A stretch of 64,000 bases of DNA from the IMG/VR virus record IMGVR_UViG_3300030620_000005, positions 8,096 through 72,095 of that record; one strand, 5' to 3'. This DNA is from a virus. Taxonomy: Duplodnaviria; Caudoviricetes. Below the pieces are notes generated by a model. That model was given only the letters and a program-made list of their open reading frames with translations, had not been told where the DNA came from and did not search any database. Made by a program: the position numbers and the translations under genes. Shown here in pieces: positions 26,516-36,991 of the stretch. How positions within the stretch are numbered: the stretch's first letter is position 1; each line of letters starts with the position of its first letter.

Positions 26516-29500
26516 TCACCTCCCTCCCGGGTGGACACGACGCGACAGCATCCGCATCACAATCCGTACCGCATCACGCTCGGTCTGCTCCTGCGAGCGG
26601 CCCCACGCAACCGTCGGCCGACCAGCCGCCACCAGCGCCTGCGGCTCACCCGACGCGACACGGGCCCGCATCTTCGGCACCGGGAACCCCGGCACATTCA
26701 CCGCCAGCAACCCCACCAGCCGAAGCTGCCCCCCGATCCGCCGCCAGTCCCCACTGACCTGGCCCGCGGCCTGAAGCTCGTACACCTTCAACGGATCAGC
26801 GCCCGGACGGACCGCGCCCGCGACCCAGATCCCGTGCGCGTCGTTACCCACCGCGACATCGGCGACCGCAGCACCCGTGTTGTCGTAGTGCTCCGCCGCC
26901 GGAGACGCACCCATGTGCAGCGGCGCATGCCCCGTCCCCACAGTGATCTGACCGACCGCCACCCGGCTGCCGTCGTCGCACTTCACCTCACCGGTGCGGT
27001 AGTACGGGTGCTGCTCTTCGTGCGGCGGCTGCACACACACACCTTCCTGCCCGATGTGGCAGGACCCCCACTGCGCGGCATGCCCATAGATCCGGCCATC
27101 ATCCGTCACCGTGATCGGCGTGGGCAACGACAGGCCCGGGTCAGTGAACCAGGCAGTCGGCGGCGCCCATACCGAGCCGGAGGCGGCCAGCGCATGCACG
27201 GACCGAAACGGCTCCGGCTCCCGCCCGGCGTCCCGCAGGTGCGCGGCGACGTGGTCGTACACGCCACGCCGGTCCGCCTCCGGGATCGACGTGCCGCCGC
27301 GGGCGCCGTGCAGGGCGCCGATCGACGCAGAGCAGGCGGCCAGGTTTGCCGCGCCCACGGTGCCATCTGCGCTGATCTCGTGGTGCAGGAATTTCGCCGC
27401 GGACTTCGCCAGTTCGCCAGCCTCGACCGCGTCCCCGTCGTACCAGCCGTACGCGGCCCGCGCCTTGGCCAGCGTCAGCGGCGAGTCGATGCGCTTCTCG
27501 TTCGCGCCCGCGTCCCATGGCTCGTCGGAGGTGGCGGTGTCGTGGGTGCCGACCGCGCCCATCTCCTGCACCGCCAGCGCCAGGACAGCGGTCTCACCGA
27601 CCGGCTGGCCGCCGGCGACGATGGCACCCTGCTCGTCGAGGAGCGCGACGTACGCCTCGGCGAACGCGGGAATGTCGACCAGGGTTGCGGCCCTGATGCG
27701 GCCGCCGTGGAAAATCATCTTCTCGGGCTGCGCGAACAGCATCTCGAACAGATCGTCCTCGTCGCCTTCACCGGCGCCGGCGTTGACGTCGTCGGGCCAC
27801 ACGAACTCGACGTCGGCGTCCGCGATGGAGTCGGCGTCGATGGAGACACCGCGAAGGAACTCACCCTTGAGCTTGTCGTAGGCGCGGCGCCCGTTGTCGT
27901 CGGAGAGGTCGATGACACCAGCACCCATGATCTTGTTGTCGTCGCGCCATATCCGGTCGATGCGGCCGACGTTGACGGCTACGGTGTGGGGCTCGCCGCC
28001 GTGGGAGTCCTCGATGTTCCAGCGCAGCGGGACGGGCAGGTCAGCCCACTGCAGGGCGCCGGGGGCGAACTCGCGGCCGTCGCCGGTGACGATGCCTTCG
28101 ACGGCGAGGACGCCTTCCCACGGGGCCGTGTCGCCCGCGTAGTCGAGGCCGCGCTCGTCGTCGTCTTCGTCGTCGCGTTGCATGCGGTCGCCTTCTTCGG
28201 CGTACAGGGCGGCCTGCTGCTCCATGGCTTCCGCCTCGGTGGCGTGGCAGCCCATGAGTTCGTCGGTCATTTCCTTGATGACGGCCCACGGCGTATCGGC
28301 GCCGCAGTCCGGGTGATCCTGCTGGACGCGATACGGCATCGTGCCCTCCATGTTGGTGGTCTGGTGGGGCATTGTGTCCGCGTTCGCAGACAAGATCATT
28401 CCGGCGGCGGCTTGCTCGTCCGCCTGTGGCCACACCGTCACGAGGGTGCCGCGACAGCGGGAACCGCCGAGGCAGTTGATGTAGCCGCCCGACGGGTACG
28501 CGGTGCGCGCATCGGGCAGCGTGGTGTAGCGGGTTCCGTCGATGTCCCGGCAGGGCTTGCACGTTCGGCCCGGTTCGAGAATCTCGGTGGCTGTGTACTC
28601 GGCTGGCGGCGCGACTGCGAGGACGGCCATGCGGCCTTCGTTCTGCGCCGCGGACATGGCCGCACCCACCTGCTCCTCCACCGCAGCACCCGACAGCCCG
28701 GTGAGATGCTCGTCCACCTGGCCCGCTACCTGCGATGGCGAGCCGGAGCCCCACACGCGCATCGCCTGCCGCACCGCGGACTGCACCAGGCCGACGCCGA
28801 GGACGCTGGCTGCGGTGCGGCCGATCTGCCGCAGCCGGTCCCGGATCGCCGCGGCGGTCAGCGCCTCATCGTCGAGGGACCATTCGGGAATGTCGACGCC
28901 CTGCGCTTCGGCCTCCGCCTGCTGCTGCTCGCCTGCCTCCCGCGCGTAGGCGATCATGCGGGCGATGAGGAGGCGCGCCCCGTCCTCGGTGTCGACGGTC
29001 AGTCCGTCGAGCAGGTCCAAGTTGTCAGCCTCCGCCGCGGCTTGGATGCTGGCGGTGATCTCGGCGCGCATCGCCTCCTGCACGCTGGCCCACGCCTCGA
29101 CCGTGCCGTCTACGGCTTCGTGCCAGGCCTTGTCCATCTGCGTGAAGTCAGCGCGGGACGCGAGTTCGAGTTCGGTGGGCTGGCGGCGCAACGGACCGGC
29201 CGCCGCGGTTCGAGCGGTGGTTCGTGTGCGGCCGGTGACGCGGACGGGGACACCGAGTTCGGCAGCGAGTCCTTCGGCGGCCGTGCACATCGCGTCCAAG
29301 AGCAAGGCGCCGCCGCGGTTGGTCTCCACCTCGACATGGACGACGTCCTCGTCCCACCTCGGGGTGAGGACGCGGGCGGAGGCGGTGACGTCGCCGCCGA
29401 GGGGGATGTCAGTGTGCTCCCCGGCGAACGCCACGCGGACGCGGTCGAAGGTGACCGACCCGAGGCGCTCCTCCAACGCGATGATGAGATCCAGCTCGTC

Positions 29501-29956
29501 GGAGTACGCGGCACAGATGCGCGGCTGCCAGGGCGTGTACTGGTCGGGAAGGTTCTCCGCGTCGAGGACGTTCGCCACCGAGTAACGGGCGGCGTCGTAG
29601 GCGTTCGCCAGTGCAGGTGCTACGGCCGGGCGGCCGTCGCCGCGATCGTCGCCGACGGCCCACACCCACGACGGGGAGTCGCCGTCGGAGTTCCAGTGGT
29701 TCGCGCCGAAGATCCGCGCCTCGATGGGCTGCCCGATCCAGTTGGCGTAGTCGGCGACTTGGTCGATGAGAGCGCGCCGCTCTTCGTCGGTGAACACGCT
29801 GCCGTCGTCGCCGAGGAAGTACAGCGTGCAGTGCAGATCCTCGGCAGCCTCGCCGCCCTCGATCGCCAGCCGCGCCGCGTCCTCCGGCGTGGGCATCAGC
29901 GCAATCATCGCGCCAGAGGTGTGCGAGCCGTCAGCGGCGGCCGTGAGCGAACCCAT
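26516..29956 (-). CDS. Polyprotein: 2H-phosphoesterase-like + MuF-like minor head + two prohead protease domains
   Basis: LHCTL...PWQPRICAAY; CKPC...CLGGSRCRG; SHGG...RGVSID; TGHAP...QVSGDW. Confidence 0.85.
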   Translation of the reverse strand: MGSLTAAADGSHTSGAMIALMPTPEDAARLAIEGGEAAEDLHCTLYFLGDDGSVFTDEERRALIDQVADYANWIGQPIEARIFGANHWNSDGDSPSWVWAVGDDRGDGRPAVAPALANAYDAARYSVANVLDAENLPDQYTPWQPRICAAYSDELDLIIALEERLGSVTFDRVRVAFAGEHTDIPLGGDVTASARVLTPRWDEDVVHVEVETNRGGALLLDAMCTAAEGLAAELGVPVRVTGRTRTTARTAAAGPLRRQPTELELASRADFTQMDKAWHEAVDGTVEAWASVQEAMRAEITASIQAAAEADNLDLLDGLTVDTEDGARLLIARMIAYAREAGEQQQAEAEAQGVDIPEWSLDDEALTAAAIRDRLRQIGRTAASVLGVGLVQSAVRQAMRVWGSGSPSQVAGQVDEHLTGLSGAAVEEQVGAAMSAAQNEGRMAVLAVAPPAEYTATEILEPGRTCKPCRDIDGTRYTTLPDARTAYPSGGYINCLGGSRCRGTLVTVWPQADEQAAAGMILSANADTMPHQTTNMEGTMPYRVQQDHPDCGADTPWAVIKEMTDELMGCHATEAEAMEQQAALYAEEGDRMQRDDEDDDERGLDYAGDTAPWEGVLAVEGIVTGDGREFAPGALQWADLPVPLRWNIEDSHGGEPHTVAVNVGRIDRIWRDDNKIMGAGVIDLSDDNGRRAYDKLKGEFLRGVSIDADSIADADVEFVWPDDVNAGAGEGDEDDLFEMLFAQPEKMIFHGGRIRAATLVDIPAFAEAYVALLDEQGAIVAGGQPVGETAVLALAVQEMGAVGTHDTATSDEPWDAGANEKRIDSPLTLAKARAAYGWYDGDAVEAGELAKSAAKFLHHEISADGTVGAANLAACSASIGALHGARGGTSIPEADRRGVYDHVAAHLRDAGREPEPFRSVHALAASGSVWAPPTAWFTDPGLSLPTPITVTDDGRIYGHAAQWGSCHIGQEGVCVQPPHEEQHPYYRTGEVKCDDGSRVAVGQITVGTGHAPLHMGASPAAEHYDNTGAAVADVAVGNDAHGIWVAGAVRPGADPLKVYELQAAGQVSGDWRRIGGQLRLVGLLAVNVPGFPVPKMRARVASGEPQALVAAGRPTVAWGRSQEQTERDAVRIVMRMLSRRVHPGGR

Positions 29957-33114: not shown

Positions 33115-33549
33115 CTAAGCCCACTCCTGCGCCGCGAGCAGCGCCCCGACCGCCCACACCGCAGGCCACACCAGCAACGGCACCGGCAGCCCCACCGACG
33201 CCCACACACCGCCCGTCACCGCGAGAGCCACCCAGCCGGACGCGCACCACGGGCACGACAGCAACTCCGCCAACCAGAACGGCGACCGCTTCCACCGACG
33301 GGCATAGATCTGCAACTCGCCATCAACCAGGCTGAACATGCCTAGACCCCGGACGTTCTTCAGGACGCCCTCGTCGACTTCGCCTGTCGGGAACGCCTCG
33401 TGGTGCTGCTCCTTCATCGTCGGCTCACGCCAGCCGCCGACGAGCCGGTCACGCAGCCACAGCACGGGCGGAAAAGTGTCGGCCACAACGAGCCGCGTAA
33501 GCCGGTACACCGCGAGCGACATCACGAGCAGCAGCAACCAAGTCTCCAT
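33115..33549 (-). CDS. DUF1360-like membrane protein
   Basis: LAVYRLTRLVVADTFPP...LSCPWCASGW; ATG 6 nt after TACGTT. Confidence 0.78.
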   Translation of the reverse strand: METWLLLLVMSLAVYRLTRLVVADTFPPVLWLRDRLVGGWREPTMKEQHHEAFPTGEVDEGVLKNVRGLGMFSLVDGELQIYARRWKRSPFWLAELLSCPWCASGWVALAVTGGVWASVGLPVPLLVWPAVWAVGALLAAQEWA

Positions 33550-33553
33550 GCCG

Positions 33554-35953
33554 TCAACGTACGCGCCCGCCAACAATCTGCTTTCTGGCCAGATCGCCAC
33601 CCAACGAACCCTGACCACGCGACGCCGTCCCCACCAACTTCAGATGCCACGCGGTCCACACGCAGTTGTGCACGAGGATTCCGTTCGCATAGAACTCGTG
33701 CTCACCCTCGATCGTCAGGTCGTACACGGGCTGCCTTGTTTCGAGCGCGGAGATGCGCTCCACACGAGTTCGAGCACGTCGCCGGAACCGGCTGATACTT
33801 GCTCTGCATGAACTCCCCTCCGCAGATCGGGCAGTTCGCCGGCTTGCGATACCGGTCAGCGCGGTCAGCAACACGACGCATGCACGCAGGAGAGCAGTAC
33901 CGCGACTCCTTGAAGCCGCGCGTCTCGTAAGGCCTGTCACATGCTTGGCAGACCTCCGTGCGGTACTCCTGCTTGGCGTAGACATCCTTGCCGTGCTGTC
34001 GATGCCACTCGCGTCCCTCATCGCTGCTGTGCCACTCGGCAGCCATGGGGCGAATGCTCGCCAGGTGCTCCAGCCATTCCGGGCTATCGAGGTCCCGTTC
34101 GTGTTCGTGGAGCAGGGCGTGCTCCTTGCGGGTGACGCACCGGAGGTTGCTGGACTCGTTGTTGAGCGGGTTGAAGTCCACGTGGTGGATGACATGGCCG
34201 CGAGGAACTTCGTCAGCGCCGTTCGCAGCCTTCCAGACCTCGACGTGGAGCTGACCCATCCTGGGTATGCGCCGGCTGTTCGCGTAGGCAGTGAAGTAGA
34301 CCCTCGACGAGCGACTCTTCGACAGAGGGAAACGAGTGAACGTGATGCCGTTGAAAACGACCGACTCAGTCTGTTTGGGCATACGTCAATTCTATCGCCC
34401 CAGACCATCTCATCCACTCGAATGAACCCATTTTGTTCGGTCCATACCTTGTGATCTGGAGTGGCCGTGAACGCCCCGGCCGTCGTCACGACACGCATCA
34501 CCTCAGCGCTCGGACGCGTCATGCCAGACCACGTCACACGGCGCCACCCGGCCCGCGTCCACGCCAAGTCGTCCGTCGTCACCTCCTCAATCGGGATCTG
34601 CCCGCGACGGGTAGTGACCAGAGTCCCGGCAACAAGGCACGCGTCCAATCGGTCCGGTGACCAGCCCGCTTCCGGGTACCAGGTCGCCATCTGGTCCTCC
34701 AGCTTCGGGAACTCGCCGGCGTGGTGCCACCTGTTCTGTGCAGTGAGCGCCGCCACGGGCTCCGCTCGCACCGCCTTGCCCCTGGTCGCGGTGACCGTGC
34801 GGATCGGAATGTCCACGCCGAGCGCGTCGGCCGCCGTGCGCAGCGTCGCGACGGCCATGTCCCCTCCAAAATTTCGCTCTACGACCAAGTCGTCTGCTTC
34901 CCAGTCGATCGCGGCCTGCACCGCGCGCCGGCCCCATCCGTCGGGCGACAACTGGCAGGACCGGTCGTCGAGGACGTAGCCGTGATGCTGCGGCCGGCCG
35001 CCATCCCCAGGAAGTACGAGGCCGGACTTCCCGACCACGACGATGCCCTGCTCCCCGGCGCCGCCGGACGGGTCGACGCCGACGGTGATTCGTACGAGGT
35101 CGGGTACGTCGCCGGGCCGTACGCGCGCTTCGTCGATCATCGTGTGTTGCCAGAGCGCGTTCTCGTCTTCTTCGATCAGCTCGCCGTACAGTTCCTGACG
35201 GCCGAGCTGCGTGCCCGCATACCGTTCCTCGAGGGAGGCTTTGATGTCCTCGGAGATGTGCGGGTTGTCGCGGTAACTGGCGTGCGTCAGCATGACGTTC
35301 GCGACCGCTCCGGAGTGCAACTGCTTGATGAGCGGCTTCGGCTTCGGCGTGGTCGAGGCGACCCAGTGCGGGCGCGGGCCGACACGGAGGCCGAACCGCA
35401 TGTGGTCCCAGGCGTCGTCGAGGTGCCGCCACGCCGCCAACTCCTCCAGCCACGCGAGGCATCGGTTACCGCCGGACCGTAGGCGGTCGACGTCGTTGGG
35501 TCCTTCCGTGCCGAAGATCTTCGCCTCGGATCCGTTGGGCCAGCGGACGATGGTGCTGCCCTTGACGGTGGCGAGCTTCGCTTCTGGGCTGTGGACGCTC
35601 AGCCCGGATGGCCCGGAGAAGCAGGAGGTGACGGCGTCGCCTTGGGTGGGGCCGATGATGGCGATCCAGTGCGGGATCGGGCCGGGTAGGCAGGGCGGTC
35701 CGTGGACGTGCTGGTGGACGTACGCGGCACACGCGTCCGTCTTGCCCGCCATCCTGCCGGCGAGCAACAGCCACCCGTAGAAGTCGCCGGGCGGCGGCAC
35801 CTGGTGGGGAAGCGGAGTCCACCTGGGTTTCGTCAGCGCGTCGTAGAGGCTGCCCACGTCCGCAGCCGATCGGATAGCGGCCTCCGCGAATTCGGCGCGC
35901 GTGTTCCCCCGCTCCTGCTGGAGTGGGAAGAAGCTTTCCCAGTCGACGCCCAT
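33554..35953 (-). CDS. terL: Terminase large subunit (intein-containing; start uncertain, the frame stays open to 36094)
   Basis: AGRMAGKT (Walker A), WLEEL (Walker B), STTPKP, VGVDPS, ERNFGG, RGKAVRAEP, SPDRLDA|CVW. Confidence 0.93.
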   Translation of the reverse strand: MGVDWESFFPLQQERGNTRAEFAEAAIRSAADVGSLYDALTKPRWTPLPHQVPPPGDFYGWLLLAGRMAGKTDACAAYVHQHVHGPPCLPGPIPHWIAIIGPTQGDAVTSCFSGPSGLSVHSPEAKLATVKGSTIVRWPNGSEAKIFGTEGPNDVDRLRSGGNRCLAWLEELAAWRHLDDAWDHMRFGLRVGPRPHWVASTTPKPKPLIKQLHSGAVANVMLTHASYRDNPHISEDIKASLEERYAGTQLGRQELYGELIEEDENALWQHTMIDEARVRPGDVPDLVRITVGVDPSGGAGEQGIVVVGKSGLVLPGDGGRPQHHGYVLDDRSCQLSPDGWGRRAVQAAIDWEADDLVVERNFGGDMAVATLRTAADALGVDIPIRTVTATRGKAVRAEPVAALTAQNRWHHAGEFPKLEDQMATWYPEAGWSPDRLDACLVAGTLVTTRRGQIPIEEVTTDDLAWTRAGWRRVTWSGMTRPSAEVMRVVTTAGAFTATPDHKVWTEQNGFIRVDEMVWGDRIDVCPNRLSRSFSTASRSLVSLCRRVARRGSTSLPTRTAGAYPGWVSSTSRSGRLRTALTKFLAAMSSTTWTSTRSTTSPATSGASPARSTPCSTNTNGTSIARNGWSTWRAFAPWLPSGTAAMRDASGIDSTARMSTPSRSTARRSAKHVTGLTRRAASRSRGTALLRACVVLLTALTGIASRRTARSAEGSSCRASISRFRRRARTRVERISALETRQPVYDLTIEGEHEFYANGILVHNCVWTAWHLKLVGTASRGQGSLGGDLARKQIVGGRVR
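33665..34639 (-). mobile_element. Intein (325 aa) in the TerL nuclease domain
   Basis: Begins CLVAGT, block B ATPDHKVW, ends PVYDLTIEGEHEFYANGILVHN followed by Cys+1; removal restores DRLDACVW. Confidence 0.95.
33702..34382 (-). CDS. HNH homing endonuclease encoded in an alternative frame inside the intein
   Basis: LHVEVW...IHHVDFNPLNNESSNLRCVTRKEH; two CxxC...C zinc repeats; own ATG 6 nt after TAGAAT. Confidence 0.9.
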   Translation of the reverse strand: MPKQTESVVFNGITFTRFPLSKSRSSRVYFTAYANSRRIPRMGQLHVEVWKAANGADEVPRGHVIHHVDFNPLNNESSNLRCVTRKEHALLHEHERDLDSPEWLEHLASIRPMAAEWHSSDEGREWHRQHGKDVYAKQEYRTEVCQACDRPYETRGFKESRYCSPACMRRVADRADRYRKPANCPICGGEFMQSKYQPVPATCSNSCGAHLRARNKAARVRPDDRG

Positions 35954-36104
35954 GGTCGGATTGTGGCTGCTGTTCGAGGGTGTGCTGTCCGGAGCGGGGG
36001 TTGGTTGTTGTCTCGTACGCTGGCCGTGCGCCAGGGCCTCATGTCCCTCATTGACCCGTGGGCGCCCCCGGGAAGAAGCGCAAAGGGGCGCCACTCAGCG
36101 GCGG

Positions 36105-36677
36105 CTACCAGCGGTCGGGCAGACCCGAGGTGTGCTCGCCATGCCAGTGCCACAGCCACGTGCGTGCGGGGGCGTGGTGGAAGCGGGCTCCGGCTGCGAG
36201 GAGTTTGCGCCACAGGCCCCAGTCGTCGCAGGCGCTCTCCTGCTGGTCGCCGTACGGTTCGAAGCCGCCGACATCGCGTACGAGTTCGGTGCGGGCAAGG
36301 ACCGTGACGGGGATGTAGTTCCGCTGGCGGAGGTCATCCGGGTCGAAGGGACGGCCGAATACGCCGGGCCACGGATCGAACGCGCGGGACGAGACCACAT
36401 CGAACCACGGATAGACCACGTCCGCGCCGGTCTCCGCGGCGCCCTTGACCAGGGTCAGGATGTGCTCGGGGCGCCACTCGTCATCGTCGTCGAGGAACGC
36501 CGAGTACTCGGTGTCGACTGCGGCGAGCGCCCGGTTGCGGGCTGCGGCTGCGCCGATGTGCTGGTGGTCGACGTAGATGCTGGCGCCGGTGACGGGGCGG
36601 GTTTGGGCGTGGATGCTGTCGAGGGCACGGCGGAGGTAGTCGGCGCGGGGCGGGATGGTGGGGATGACGGCGGTCAC
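36105..36677 (-). CDS. GT2-family glycosyltransferase
   Basis: AVIPT, GAAAARN, FLDDDD (DxD), DDWGLW; GTG 36677 coupled to the upstream stop. Confidence 0.88.
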   Translation of the reverse strand: MTAVIPTIPPRADYLRRALDSIHAQTRPVTGASIYVDHQHIGAAAARNRALAAVDTEYSAFLDDDDEWRPEHILTLVKGAAETGADVVYPWFDVVSSRAFDPWPGVFGRPFDPDDLRQRNYIPVTVLARTELVRDVGGFEPYGDQQESACDDWGLWRKLLAAGARFHHAPARTWLWHWHGEHTSGLPDRW

Positions 36678-36991
36678 GCCTGGGTGGAGTGCCAAGGTTC
36701 GTCTCCGTCCTCTCGCTTGCGCCGTTCGCAGATGTCACAGACCGTTCCGCTGAGTGCGTAGTGAGTCCATTTCGGCTTGTGCGTGCGTCGCTTCCGGTCG
36801 GCGCGGTCGGCGAGGACGTTGATCATTCCTACGGTCTTAGGGGCCTCGCCGCTCAGTACTCGGTAGGCGTCTGCTGCGCCTTCGATGTAGGCCCGTTCTT
36901 CTTCGCCGAGGGAGTCTGACTCGTCGTCGTTGTCCAGGTCGGGGAGGCGTGCAATGAACTGCTTGAGCGCTTCCTCGTCGGGCGCGGCCAT
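36674..36991 (-). CDS. Hypothetical protein
   Basis: ATG 36991 after GGAGG; C-terminal CDIC. Confidence 0.65.
   Translation of the reverse strand: MAAPDEEALKQFIARLPDLDNDDESDSLGEEERAYIEGAADAYRVLSGEAPKTVGMINVLADRADRKRRTHKPKWTHYALSGTVCDICERRKREDGDEPWHSTQA

What the first reader, a model, noticed from the sequence alone, without database searches (positions are those of the whole stretch)
33665..34639. TerL intein whose homing endonuclease is overprinted in another reading frame with its own promoter
Seen: the intein frame is stop-free for 325 aa, but its central region of about 200 aa is Ser/Thr/Arg-rich filler. A 226-aa HNH plus zinc-repeat ORF (34382-33702) occupies a shifted frame on the same strand, starts 6 nt after a TAGAAT -10 box, has an in-frame TGA two codons upstream, and overlaps the block F splicing codons at its end. 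Established: intein endonucleases are normally in-frame domains. Inference: a free-standing HNH gene invaded a mini-intein, the filler frame is kept open so TerL still splices, and nuclease expression is uncoupled from terL. From memory, a recent actinophage intein survey mentions such out-of-frame cases, so novelty needs checking.
Basis: partly seen in the sequence, partly recalled or inferred. Interest (0 to 1): 0.85.

Follow-up and report, generated by a model that had tools for sequence, protein, structure and literature searches.

The report
Terminase intein with overprinted HNH gene
A phage DNA-packaging gene carries a self-splicing intein, and a complete HNH homing-endonuclease gene is written inside it one base out of step; this is real and kept by selection, but it is a widespread variant of a layout first described in 2025.

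Summary
Observation confirmed at every coordinate. terL (33554-36094, minus strand) holds a 325-aa class-1 intein (33665-34639). A 226-aa HNH_3 plus two-zinc-ribbon ORF (33702-34382) lies in the -1 (+2) frame.

Openness of the intein frame in this 66% GC window alone is only marginal (P 0.14 to 0.05). Comparison settles it. In 91 of 111 related loci (GC 29-70%) the homologous HNH ORF is nested at the same frame offset, with 0 stops in the host frame against 1699 in the third frame.

Among five close relatives, dN/dS over the overlap is 0.17 in the HNH frame and 1.9 in the intein frame. AlphaFold gives pLDDT 94 for the HNH protein. In the intein frame it gives 96-98 for the two Hint parts and 40-55 for the 200-aa filler.

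The TAGAAT hexamer 6 nt before the ATG is built from rare codons. It is invariant in close relatives, and TANNNT sits at that position in 10 of 16 high-GC relatives (P about 1e-22). Transcription from it was not tested.

The closest extein (90% identical) has no intein, so the element moves horizontally.

The general kind is published (preprints of 2025 and 2026), and this scan has noted this layout in at least 34 other genomes. Verdict: new variant of a known kind.

The parts
33554..36094 (-). terL ORF, the large terminase precursor (846 codons from the GTG). The probable true start is the ATG at 35953.
   Evidence: Terminase_6N at E 5e-15, plus Terminase_6C. The inteinless homolog P0005 aligns from about residue 48.
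34640..36094 (-). N-extein, ending ...PDRLDA
   Evidence: The Terminase_6C match ends at the insertion point.
33665..34639 (-). Class-1 intein, 325 aa, from Cys1 to Asn325
34373..34639 (-). Hint N-terminal part (intein residues 1-89, blocks A and B, with TPDH at 60-63)
   Evidence: pLDDT 96-98. C1, T60 and H63 are conserved.
33773..34372 (-). Filler: intein residues 90-289, kept open but unstructured, rich in Ser, Arg, Thr and Ala
   Evidence: pLDDT 40-55. Composition. Apparent dN/dS is 1.9 in this frame.
33665..33772 (-). Hint C-terminal part (intein residues 290-325, blocks F and G, ending ILVHN)
   Evidence: pLDDT 96-98. The motif is conserved in about 89 of 91 loci.
33554..33664 (-). C-extein (36 aa, starting CVWTAW) plus the stop codon
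33702..34382 (-). Nested HNH endonuclease ORF, 226 aa, in the +2 (-1) frame of terL
   Evidence: Mean pLDDT 94. dN/dS 0.17.
34116..34250 (-). HNH_3 catalytic motif (HNH residues 45-89; H66, H67, N75, N79 and H88 invariant)
   Evidence: I-HmuI (1u3e) matches at Z 5.9 and HMM E 1.4e-3.
33882..33950 (-). Zinc ribbon 1 (C145, C148, C163, C167)
33762..33833 (-). Zinc ribbon 2 (C184, C187, C203, C207)
   Evidence: A YacG-type zinc finger matches at Z 3.9 over residues 180-226.
34389..34394 (-). TAGAAT, a -10-like hexamer at -12 to -7 of the HNH ATG. It is made of the host-frame codons GAT-AGA-ATT.
34386..34388 (-). TGA that closes the HNH frame two codons before its ATG
   Evidence: The position is kept as TAA in L134.
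33702..33772 (-). Stretch where both frames encode folded or conserved protein: the HNH C-terminal helix and tail against intein block F
   Evidence: Divergence falls in both frames here (HNH-frame dS 0.19 against 0.73 elsewhere).

Best explanation
This is a mobile intein with a separately encoded homing endonuclease overprinted on it.

1. Translation of terL in its own frame gives a TerL precursor. A class-1 intein sits in it 36 residues before the C-terminus, at the end of the RNase H-like nuclease domain (inferred to be next to a catalytic Asp).
2. The Hint fold forms from intein residues 1-89 and 290-325. The 200-residue linker is a disordered loop whose only requirement is to have no stop codon. 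The intein then splices out and restores TerL (inferred).
3. The same DNA, read one base back, encodes a 226-aa I-HmuI-like HNH nuclease with two C-terminal zinc ribbons.
4. The nuclease is made as a separate protein. The most likely route is a leaderless transcript started by the TAGAAT -10 element 6 nt before its ATG. Internal initiation on terL mRNA is the alternative route.
5. The nuclease is inferred to cut intein-less terL alleles of co-infecting relatives near the insertion site. Repair then copies intein and nuclease gene together (homing).

Shown here: both frames are under selection, the HNH frame is under purifying selection, the two frames give folded versus unfolded predictions, the -10 hexamer is conserved, and intein and extein histories disagree.

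Inferred: splicing, transcription start, cleavage and homing.
For: Architecture.

Same frame offset in 91 of 111 loci, over GC 29-70%. There are 0 host-frame stops against 1699 in the third frame, and un-nested homologs have 2-12 stops in the equivalent frame.

About 89 of 91 nested loci have block F/G and HN|C 8-30 codons after the HNH stop. About 88 have the CxxxGT block A.

Substitutions concentrate at HNH codon position 3. At about 90% nt identity, amino-acid identity is 0.906 for HNH against 0.758 for the filler.

In five close relatives, dN/dS over the overlap is 0.17 in the HNH frame and 1.90 in the host frame. Hint-N gives 0.13.

AlphaFold: HNH pLDDT 94. The intein gives 96-98, then 40-55, then 96-98.

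Closest solved relative: I-HmuI at Z 5.9 and E 1.4e-3.

The -10 element:
- TANNNT lies at -12 to -7 in 10 of 16 high-GC loci against a background of 0.26% (P 1e-22).
- GAT is used for Asp in 8 of 10 loci against 14% expected (P 5e-6).
- In the window, GAT, AGA and ATT make up 10%, 2% and 6.5% of their codon families.
- GATAGAAT is invariant in WIN, L134, L140, L141 and L142 while the 6-nt spacer varies.
- Firmicute-type relatives instead carry AAGGAG or GGAGG 5-9 nt before the start.

Mobility: the inteinless L136 extein is 90% identical and syntenic. L134 has an extein 64% identical but Hint and HNH each 81% identical.
Against: - No expression, splicing or cleavage data exist.
- The sigma-70 scan, which needs both -35 and -10, finds nothing in 33400-36400.
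- Part of the hexamer's conservation could come from the conserved host-frame G-D-(I/R)-(I/L) residues, although the rare codons argue against that.
- In this window alone the open frame is only marginally unlikely (P 0.14 to 0.05).
- The 90%-identical inteinless allele has Ala, not Cys, at +1 and shares only 72 of 90 nt around the site, so it is unknown whether it is a target.
- The fold match to I-HmuI is moderate (Z 5.9, rmsd 3.6 A over 80 residues).
Confidence: 0.8

Rival explanations
1. The HNH protein is translated by internal initiation on the long terL (late) mRNA and not from its own promoter. Its expression would then be coupled to terL transcription. The TAGAAT conservation would reflect something else, such as the Hint G-D-x-(I/L) residues or an unstructured AT-rich ribosome landing site.
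For: The -35/-10 scan finds no promoter. Low-GC relatives clearly use Shine-Dalgarno sites inside terL, so internal initiation is the rule in part of the family. The hexamer overlaps conserved Hint residues.
Against: There is no Shine-Dalgarno sequence before the window's ATG. Three rare codons in a row build the hexamer, and GAT is used in 8 of 10 loci against 14% expected. The hexamer sits at exactly -12 to -7 in 10 of 16 high-GC loci. That is the geometry of leaderless actinobacterial genes (my knowledge of the published transcription-start maps; not checked here).
Confidence: 0.3
2. The HNH frame is a relic. The endonuclease is no longer made or active, and the intein persists only because it must splice for TerL to work.
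For: Nothing shows expression. The homing-cycle model predicts endonuclease decay after fixation (established model, cited in 10.1101/2025.01.02.630785).
Against: The ORF is intact, with dN/dS 0.17 among close relatives. All catalytic and zinc ligands are kept. pLDDT is 94. The start signal is conserved. The closest extein lacks the intein, so the intein is not fixed.
Confidence: 0.06
3. The HNH domain is joined to the N-terminal part of the precursor by programmed -1 ribosomal frameshifting at the heptamer CCCAAAC (HNH codons 2-3).
For: C-CCA-AAC is in the right phase and lies just after the TGA that closes the HNH frame.
Against: L134 has CCCAAGC at that place. In-phase slippery heptamers occur in 5 of 75 loci, about the 6 expected by chance. 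The HNH frame is closed 0-16 codons before its start in most loci, and each lineage has its own start signal.
Confidence: 0.03
4. The nuclease serves DNA packaging, as a terminase-associated HNH like HK97 gp74, and does not serve homing.
For: Un-nested relatives sit beside terminase and portal genes. HNH proteins next to terminase genes are known packaging factors (PMC3592412).
Against: The syntenic relative with a 90% identical TerL has neither an intein nor an HNH gene between the glycosyltransferase and portal genes. The nuclease is of the HNH_3/I-HmuI homing type with modular zinc-ribbon DNA binders. Intein and extein histories disagree.
Confidence: 0.06
5. Assembly or sequencing artefact: an in-frame HNH intein put out of frame by two compensating indels.
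For: None beyond the fact that this is a metagenomic viral contig.
Against: About 90 independent loci, including isolate phages TJE1, phiCDHM19 and Highwayman, show the same offset and the same boundaries. The HNH frame has its own start and is closed two codons upstream.
Confidence: 0.01

Closest known systems
[quoted passage not shown]
   Same: A same-strand nuclease ORF lies between the splicing blocks of a TerL intein, in 'frame 3' (+2). The intein frame stays open and is predicted to be unstructured. The authors propose an origin from free-standing endonuclease genes. I checked Vivi2 and Vincenzo myself and found the same offset.
   Different: - The nuclease family and domain order differ. 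There, an Endo VII-type DHDH..N motif is C-terminal. Here, HNH_3 is N-terminal and followed by two zinc ribbons. tblastn of the window's HNH finds none of those phages.
- The insertion site differs: residue 478 of 798 in Vivi2, against 36 residues before the C-terminus here.
- This family reaches far beyond actinophages, over GC 29-70% and many phyla.
Cyanobacterial dnaX intein with an out-of-frame LAGLIDADG endonuclease (Phillips, DeSimone and Gogarten, bioRxiv 10.64898/2026.09.14.751524; first noted by Gorbalenya 1998 as cited there)
   Same: The two functions lie in overlapping frames. The intein linker is disordered and the other frame folds with high confidence. dN/dS is low in the endonuclease frame and inflated in the extein frame. 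The distribution is sporadic.
   Different: The host gene is cellular (dnaX), the nuclease is LAGLIDADG, and the paper does not mention a terminase or a promoter.
Hidden out-of-frame HNH in a phage DNA methylase (the ShiLan domain; Arsenault et al. 2025, PMC11855218)
   Same: An HNH ORF is overprinted in a host gene whose own frame stays open. The authors propose leaderless initiation.
   Different: That element has no intein, so the insert stays in the protein. Here a complete Hint domain removes it.
Fractured genes: split inteins with a free-standing endonuclease gene between the halves (Dassa et al. 2009, PMC2677866)
   Same: The endonuclease is a separate gene inside an intein. Its 3' end overlaps the C-terminal intein coding part. 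Relatives of the window's element appear to have exactly this layout (L070, L097, L099, L101, L104, L109).
   Different: In the window the host frame is continuous, so the intein is contiguous and not split. Dassa's nucleases are of the GIY-YIG and Vsr types.
[quoted passage not shown]
   Same: A Hint domain combined with an HNH_3 nuclease.
   Different: That nuclease is an in-frame domain of the intein polypeptide. L121 among my loci is such a case, in an RNR-like gene.
I-HmuI, the intron-encoded HNH homing endonuclease of phage SPO1 (PDB 1u3e)
   Same: It is the best solved relative of the nuclease part: E 1.4e-3 and Z 5.9 with rmsd 3.6 A over 80 residues.
   Different: I-HmuI is intron-encoded and has a different C-terminal DNA-binding part, not zinc ribbons.

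Membership tests
Class-1 intein (Hint fold) | Cys/Ser nucleophile as first residue (block A) | tested here: met
   The intein starts CLVAGTLVTT after PDRLDA. C1 is invariant in alignment A3.
Class-1 intein (Hint fold) | Block B TxxH | tested here: met
   TPDH lies at intein residues 60-63. H63 is invariant and T60 is at least 90% conserved.
Class-1 intein (Hint fold) | C-terminal His-Asn followed by Cys/Ser/Thr at +1 (blocks F and G) | tested here: met
   The sequence reads ...YANGILVHN|CVW. The same motif occurs in about 89 of 91 loci.
Class-1 intein (Hint fold) | Hint fold formed by the N- and C-terminal parts | tested here: met
   AF2 gives pLDDT 96-98 for residues 1-89 and 290-325. Pfam Intein_splicing scores 35.9 bits against a cut-off of 35.8. 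Hint_2 scores 25.1, below its cut-off of 28.4.
Class-1 intein (Hint fold) | Protein splicing activity | not testable with these tools
   Inferred from the intact catalytic residues and from TerL being needed by a phage that has a full head and tail module.
HNH_3 / I-HmuI-like homing endonuclease | HNH (beta-beta-alpha-metal) motif with conserved His and Asn | tested here: met
   Pfam HNH_3 at 47.7 bits against a cut-off of 24.8. H66, H67, N75, N79 and H88 are invariant in 71 sequences. PHROG 15471 'HNH endonuclease' at E 1e-28.
HNH_3 / I-HmuI-like homing endonuclease | Fold like a solved HNH homing endonuclease | tested here: met
   1u3e is the top hit at Z 5.9, rmsd 3.6 A over 80 residues. 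The next hit is I-PpoI at Z 4.3. This is moderate support only. Foldseek gave no hit at E <= 0.001.
HNH_3 / I-HmuI-like homing endonuclease | Sporadic distribution and a history that disagrees with the host gene | tested here: met
   The inteinless allele is 90% identical in the extein. The intein-bearing L134 is 64% identical in the extein but 81% in Hint and HNH.
HNH_3 / I-HmuI-like homing endonuclease | Site-specific cleavage of the empty allele | not testable with these tools
   This needs a biochemical assay.
Non-canonical inteins with a same-strand out-of-frame endonuclease (Gosselin et al. 2025) | Endonuclease ORF between the splicing blocks, same strand, other frame, with the intein frame open | tested here: met
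Non-canonical inteins with a same-strand out-of-frame endonuclease (Gosselin et al. 2025) | Endonuclease of the endonuclease VII-like type (IPR004211) | tested here: not met
   The window's ORF is HNH_3 with no Endonuclease_7 hit. The Vivi2 and Vincenzo ORFs differ in motif and domain order. This is therefore a variant and not a member of that cluster.
Fractured gene with split intein (Dassa et al. 2009) | Host gene broken into two ORFs around the endonuclease gene | tested here: not met
   The terL frame is continuous over 846 codons.
Packaging-associated HNH (HK97 gp74-like) | Required partner of terminase in all related phages | tested here: inconclusive
   The syntenic relative L136 lacks any HNH gene between the glycosyltransferase and portal genes. 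Its whole contig could not be searched.

The most novel reading that the evidence does not exclude
The HNH_3/zinc-ribbon gene nested in the TerL nuclease-domain intein may be one old dual-coding mobile element. It would have spread among tailed viruses of many bacterial phyla, and perhaps of archaea, while keeping a fixed frame relation.

It appears to re-tool its expression signal to each host: a leaderless -10 element built from rare codons in high-GC hosts, and Shine-Dalgarno sites in low-GC hosts.

Its relatives seem to preserve the whole series, which has not been described for one family:
- a free-standing gene between terL and the portal gene;
- a fractured terL with a split intein;
- the contiguous overprinted intein.

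This would be a natural record of how inteins gain endonucleases and how split inteins arise.
Probability: 0.45. Interest if true: 0.7.

Novelty: new variant of a known kind. Interest (0 to 1): 0.5.

Why it matters
Gene callers report only terL, so the nuclease gene goes unannotated. In TJE1, phiCDHM19 and Highwayman the HNH match lies under a feature annotated only as the terminase large subunit.

The family gives a clean, large natural sample of long same-strand dual coding, about 200 codons. One frame carries function. The other is constrained only to avoid stops.

The published open question 'how are hidden endonucleases translated?' (PMC11855218) becomes testable here. The hexamer can be recoded without changing either protein.

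The relatives with split and free-standing forms bear on the origin of intein endonucleases and of split inteins.

Tried and rejected
- megablast and blastn of 33554-34760 against the phage collection found no match. Only protein-level searches found relatives.
- The sigma-70 -35/-10 scan found no promoter in 33400-36400.
- Foldseek against PDB gave no hit at E <= 0.001. VIA-align gave the moderate I-HmuI match.
- The genome search on the records behind L134 and L136 failed because they are not held.
- The ungapped N-extein dN/dS values for pairs that include WIN or L142 are misaligned (dN about 0.9). I discarded them. Only the L134/L140/L141 pairs (0.06-0.07) are usable.
- L143 (P0007, 790 aa) showed no junction with my pattern and was left out.
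- Two of my motif patterns missed the C-intein halves at first. A looser pattern found them.
- -1 frameshifting at CCCAAAC was considered and rejected.
- The compensating-indel artefact was rejected.
Full report
**1. What is there**

The window is part of a 72-kb IMG/VR viral record (CheckV completeness 77%). It carries a full head and tail module, as PHROG hits show: portal, major head protein, tape measure and tail fibre.

terL is the ORF 33554-36094 on the minus strand. It matches Terminase_6N and Terminase_6C, followed by Hint_2 and Intein_splicing.

The intein runs from Cys (34639) to Asn (33665) and is 325 aa. It has:
- block A, CLVAGT;
- block B, TPDH;
- blocks F and G...VYDLTIEGEHEFYANGILVHN|C.

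A 226-aa ORF (33702-34382) lies on the same strand, offset +2 (-1) from terL. It is an HNH_3 nuclease (E 1.2e-12) followed by two CxxC...CxxxC zinc ribbons.

- TAGAAT lies at 34394-34389, 6 nt before the ATG.
- A TGA lies two codons upstream in the HNH frame.
- The HNH stop falls inside block F.
- The filler is rich in Ser, Arg, Thr and Ala: 65% against 28% in the exteins.

**2. Is it more than chance?**

Not in this 66% GC window taken alone. Permuting synonymous codons of the HNH ORF leaves the intein frame open in 14% of trials, and in 4.8% with extein codon usage.

Relatives decide the question. tblastn of the HNH protein hit inside the annotated terL of three phages: Tetrasphaera phage TJE1, Clostridium phage phiCDHM19 and Acinetobacter phage Highwayman. 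In all three the match is at the same +2 offset and terL is open across it.

Scans of IMG/VR and of GTDB genomes with an HNH alignment gave 129 loci. Of 111 with a near-full match, 91 have the HNH ORF nested in a long (mostly 700-900 aa) ORF whose frame is HNH+1. None uses the other offset. GC ranges from 29 to 70%.

Those 91 loci have 0 stops in the host frame and 1699 in the third frame. Homologs that are not nested carry 2-12 stops in the equivalent frame. For AT-rich loci P(open) is 0.005-0.04 each.

About 89 of the 91 have block F/G and HN|C (or S/T) 8-30 codons after the HNH stop, and about 88 have block A. The resequencing or compensating-indel explanation is therefore excluded.

**3. 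Which frame carries function?**

Across the family, substitutions pile up at HNH codon position 3, which is host codon position 2. HNH amino-acid identity exceeds filler identity in every divergence class, for example 0.906 against 0.758 at about 90% nt identity.

Four close relatives were fetched: L134, L140, L141 and L142. All have a 325-aa intein and a 226-aa HNH ORF. Nei-Gojobori dN/dS values among these and the window:

| Region | Frame | dN/dS |
|---|---|---|
| Overlap | HNH | 0.17 |
| Overlap, same bases | intein | 1.90 |
| Hint-N | intein | 0.13 |

In the 22 codons where the HNH tail overlaps block F, divergence drops in both frames.

AlphaFold with family alignments agrees. The HNH protein has mean pLDDT 94. 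The intein read in the terL frame gives 96-98 for residues 1-89 and 290-325, and 40-55 for residues 90-289.

The nuclease part is closest to the homing endonuclease I-HmuI. The profile search gives E 1.4e-3. VIA-align gives Z 5.9, rmsd 3.6 A over 80 residues, as top hit. The last ribbon resembles the YacG zinc finger (Z 3.9).

**4. How is the nuclease made?**

The HNH frame is closed 0-16 codons before its start in most loci, so a long fusion with the N-terminal intein part is not possible.

The window has an in-phase slippery heptamer, C-CCA-AAC, at HNH codons 2-3. L134 has CCCAAGC there, and such heptamers occur at chance level: 5 of 75 loci against about 6 expected. Frameshifting is therefore unlikely.

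Start signals follow the host type. Low-GC relatives have AAGGAG or GGAGG 5-9 nt before the start. The window and its nearest relatives have no Shine-Dalgarno site but have a -10-like hexamer.

- TANNNT occupies exactly -12 to -7 in 10 of 16 non-redundant loci with GC of at least 58%, against a background of 0.26% per position (P about 1e-22).
- The hexamer is made of host-frame codons for D-(R/I/M/K)-(I/L), using codons that are rare in these genomes.
- GAT is used in 8 of 10 loci against 14% expected (P 5e-6).
- In the window, GAT, AGA and ATT make up 10%, 2% and 6.5% of their codon families.
- In the five close relatives GATAGAAT is invariant while the 6-nt spacer differs in each.

This geometry is that of leaderless genes of high-GC Gram-positives (from my knowledge of published transcription-start maps; not checked here).

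Against this, a scan needing both -35 and -10 finds nothing, and I could obtain no RNA data. I put the own-promoter step at about 0.55 and internal initiation on terL mRNA at about 0.3.

**5. Mobility**

The best TerL match outside the intein is P0005 on locus L136. It is 90% identical, lies in the same gene order (glycosyltransferase, terL, DUF1360, portal), and has no intein. Its junction reads DRLDA|AVWGAW, with Ala where the window has the splice-essential Cys.

L134 carries the intein. Its extein is only 64% identical, while its Hint parts and its HNH are each 81% identical, and the filler 63.5%. Intein and host gene thus have different histories, as expected for homing.

The site is 36 residues before the TerL C-terminus, at the end of the Terminase_6C match. 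All seven mycobacteriophage TerL intein sites described in PMC5050341 lie in the ATPase domain, so this is a different site.

**6. Comparison with what is known**

The kind is published.
- Gosselin et al. [quoted passage not shown]
- Phillips et al. (10.64898/2026.09.14.751524) report an out-of-frame LAGLIDADG in the cyanobacterial dnaX intein, with the same frame-dependent selection.
- Arsenault et al. (PMC11855218) report a hidden HNH in a methylase that has no intein.

I fetched Vivi2 and Vincenzo. Their nested ORFs share the +2 offset, but the nuclease has a different motif and domain order, and the intein sits at a different TerL site.

The shared offset has a simple cause. In un-nested homologs the frame that a host would read at this offset has about 6 stops, while the other frame has about 18. 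This offset is therefore the cheaper one to open.

The HNH_3 plus zinc-ribbon family seen here is absent from the actinophage survey's categories, and I found no paper that describes it.

This scan has already noted the layout in at least 34 other genomes (34 notes match the words; I read eight, each with a follow-up that confirmed the observation). For the project it is therefore a repeat, and it lowers neither the evidence nor the class.

**7. Origin**

The HNH tree needs at least 5 changes between nested and un-nested states, of which at least 2 are forced by well-supported branches. No direction can be read from it.

Un-nested relatives are of two kinds:
- genes lying between an intact terL and the portal gene (L028, L092, L105; L039 has only the upstream terL tested);
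- loci where terL stops after the N-terminal intein part, and a separate open stretch in the host frame carries the C-terminal intein part and C-extein (L070, L097, L099, L101, L104, L109).

The second kind is the 'fractured gene' layout of PMC2677866.

**8. Verdict**

This is a real dual-coding element of a terL intein and a nested HNH homing-endonuclease gene. It is under selection in both frames and is probably still mobile. It has good comparative evidence for its own -10 element. It is a new and widespread variant of a recently described kind.

Noticed in passing
L070:1506-3748, L097:48-1549, L099:3-2017, L101:1341-3676, L104:201-990, L109:2-1358: Relatives in which the host frame has 4-12 stops inside the HNH region. 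Where the upstream sequence is held (all but L104), terL ends after the N-terminal intein part. In all six a separate open stretch in the same +1 frame encodes the C-terminal intein part (VYNMEV...HN|C) plus a C-extein of 20-34 aa. Some of these stretches have plausible Shine-Dalgarno sites and starts. This looks like a split-intein 'fractured' terL with an HNH gene between the halves. Decay or assembly errors are not excluded.
   Followed up: partly
L028:1716-6026, L092:1491-3606, L105:1743-5066, L039:622-2418; L004:2501-4960: Truly free-standing homologs sit directly after an intact, intein-less terL. In L028 and L105 the portal gene follows (downstream not tested in L092 and L039). In Acinetobacter phage BP10 the homolog sits just before terS. 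All are within about 100-200 nt of the place where the intein sits in the nested forms.
   Followed up: partly
L138:514-2907 (Gordonia phage Vivi2), L139:3145-5796 (Mycobacterium phage Vincenzo): The published, unrelated endonuclease VII-type nested ORFs use the same +2 offset as this family. The likely reason is that this offset needs far fewer stops removed: about 6 against about 18 in un-nested homologs.
   Followed up: partly
L121:2-3940: An Armatimonadota MAG carries a related HNH domain in frame inside an intein of a ribonucleotide-reductase-like gene. A second intein junction (VVIHN|S) lies upstream.
   Followed up: no
L136:1501-2934: The closest intein-less terL allele (90% identical extein) has Ala (GCC) where the intein-bearing alleles have the +1 Cys. 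It shares 72 of 90 nt around the site. It may be an uninvaded or a resistant target.
   Followed up: partly
L088, L090, L098, L100: The nested layout also occurs on contigs binned into archaeal MAGs (Woesearchaeota, Thorarchaeota and an unnamed archaeon), at 29-34% GC. These could be archaeal viruses or binning errors.
   Followed up: no
window 34374-34380 (minus strand): An in-phase -1 slippery heptamer, C-CCA-AAC, lies at HNH codons 2-3. It is not conserved in L134 and occurs at chance frequency in the family.
   Followed up: yes
window 26516-29956 (minus strand): A 1146-aa ORF directly after the portal gene combines PHROG hits to an RNA-ligase family (residues 4-188) with portal, MuF-like and head-maturation-protease families (residues 572-1135). 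This is an unusual fusion in the head module.
   Followed up: no
window 36105-36695 (minus strand): A glycosyltransferase gene lies immediately upstream of terL. This order is conserved in the relatives L134, L136 and L142, where a small terminase gene would be expected.
   Followed up: no
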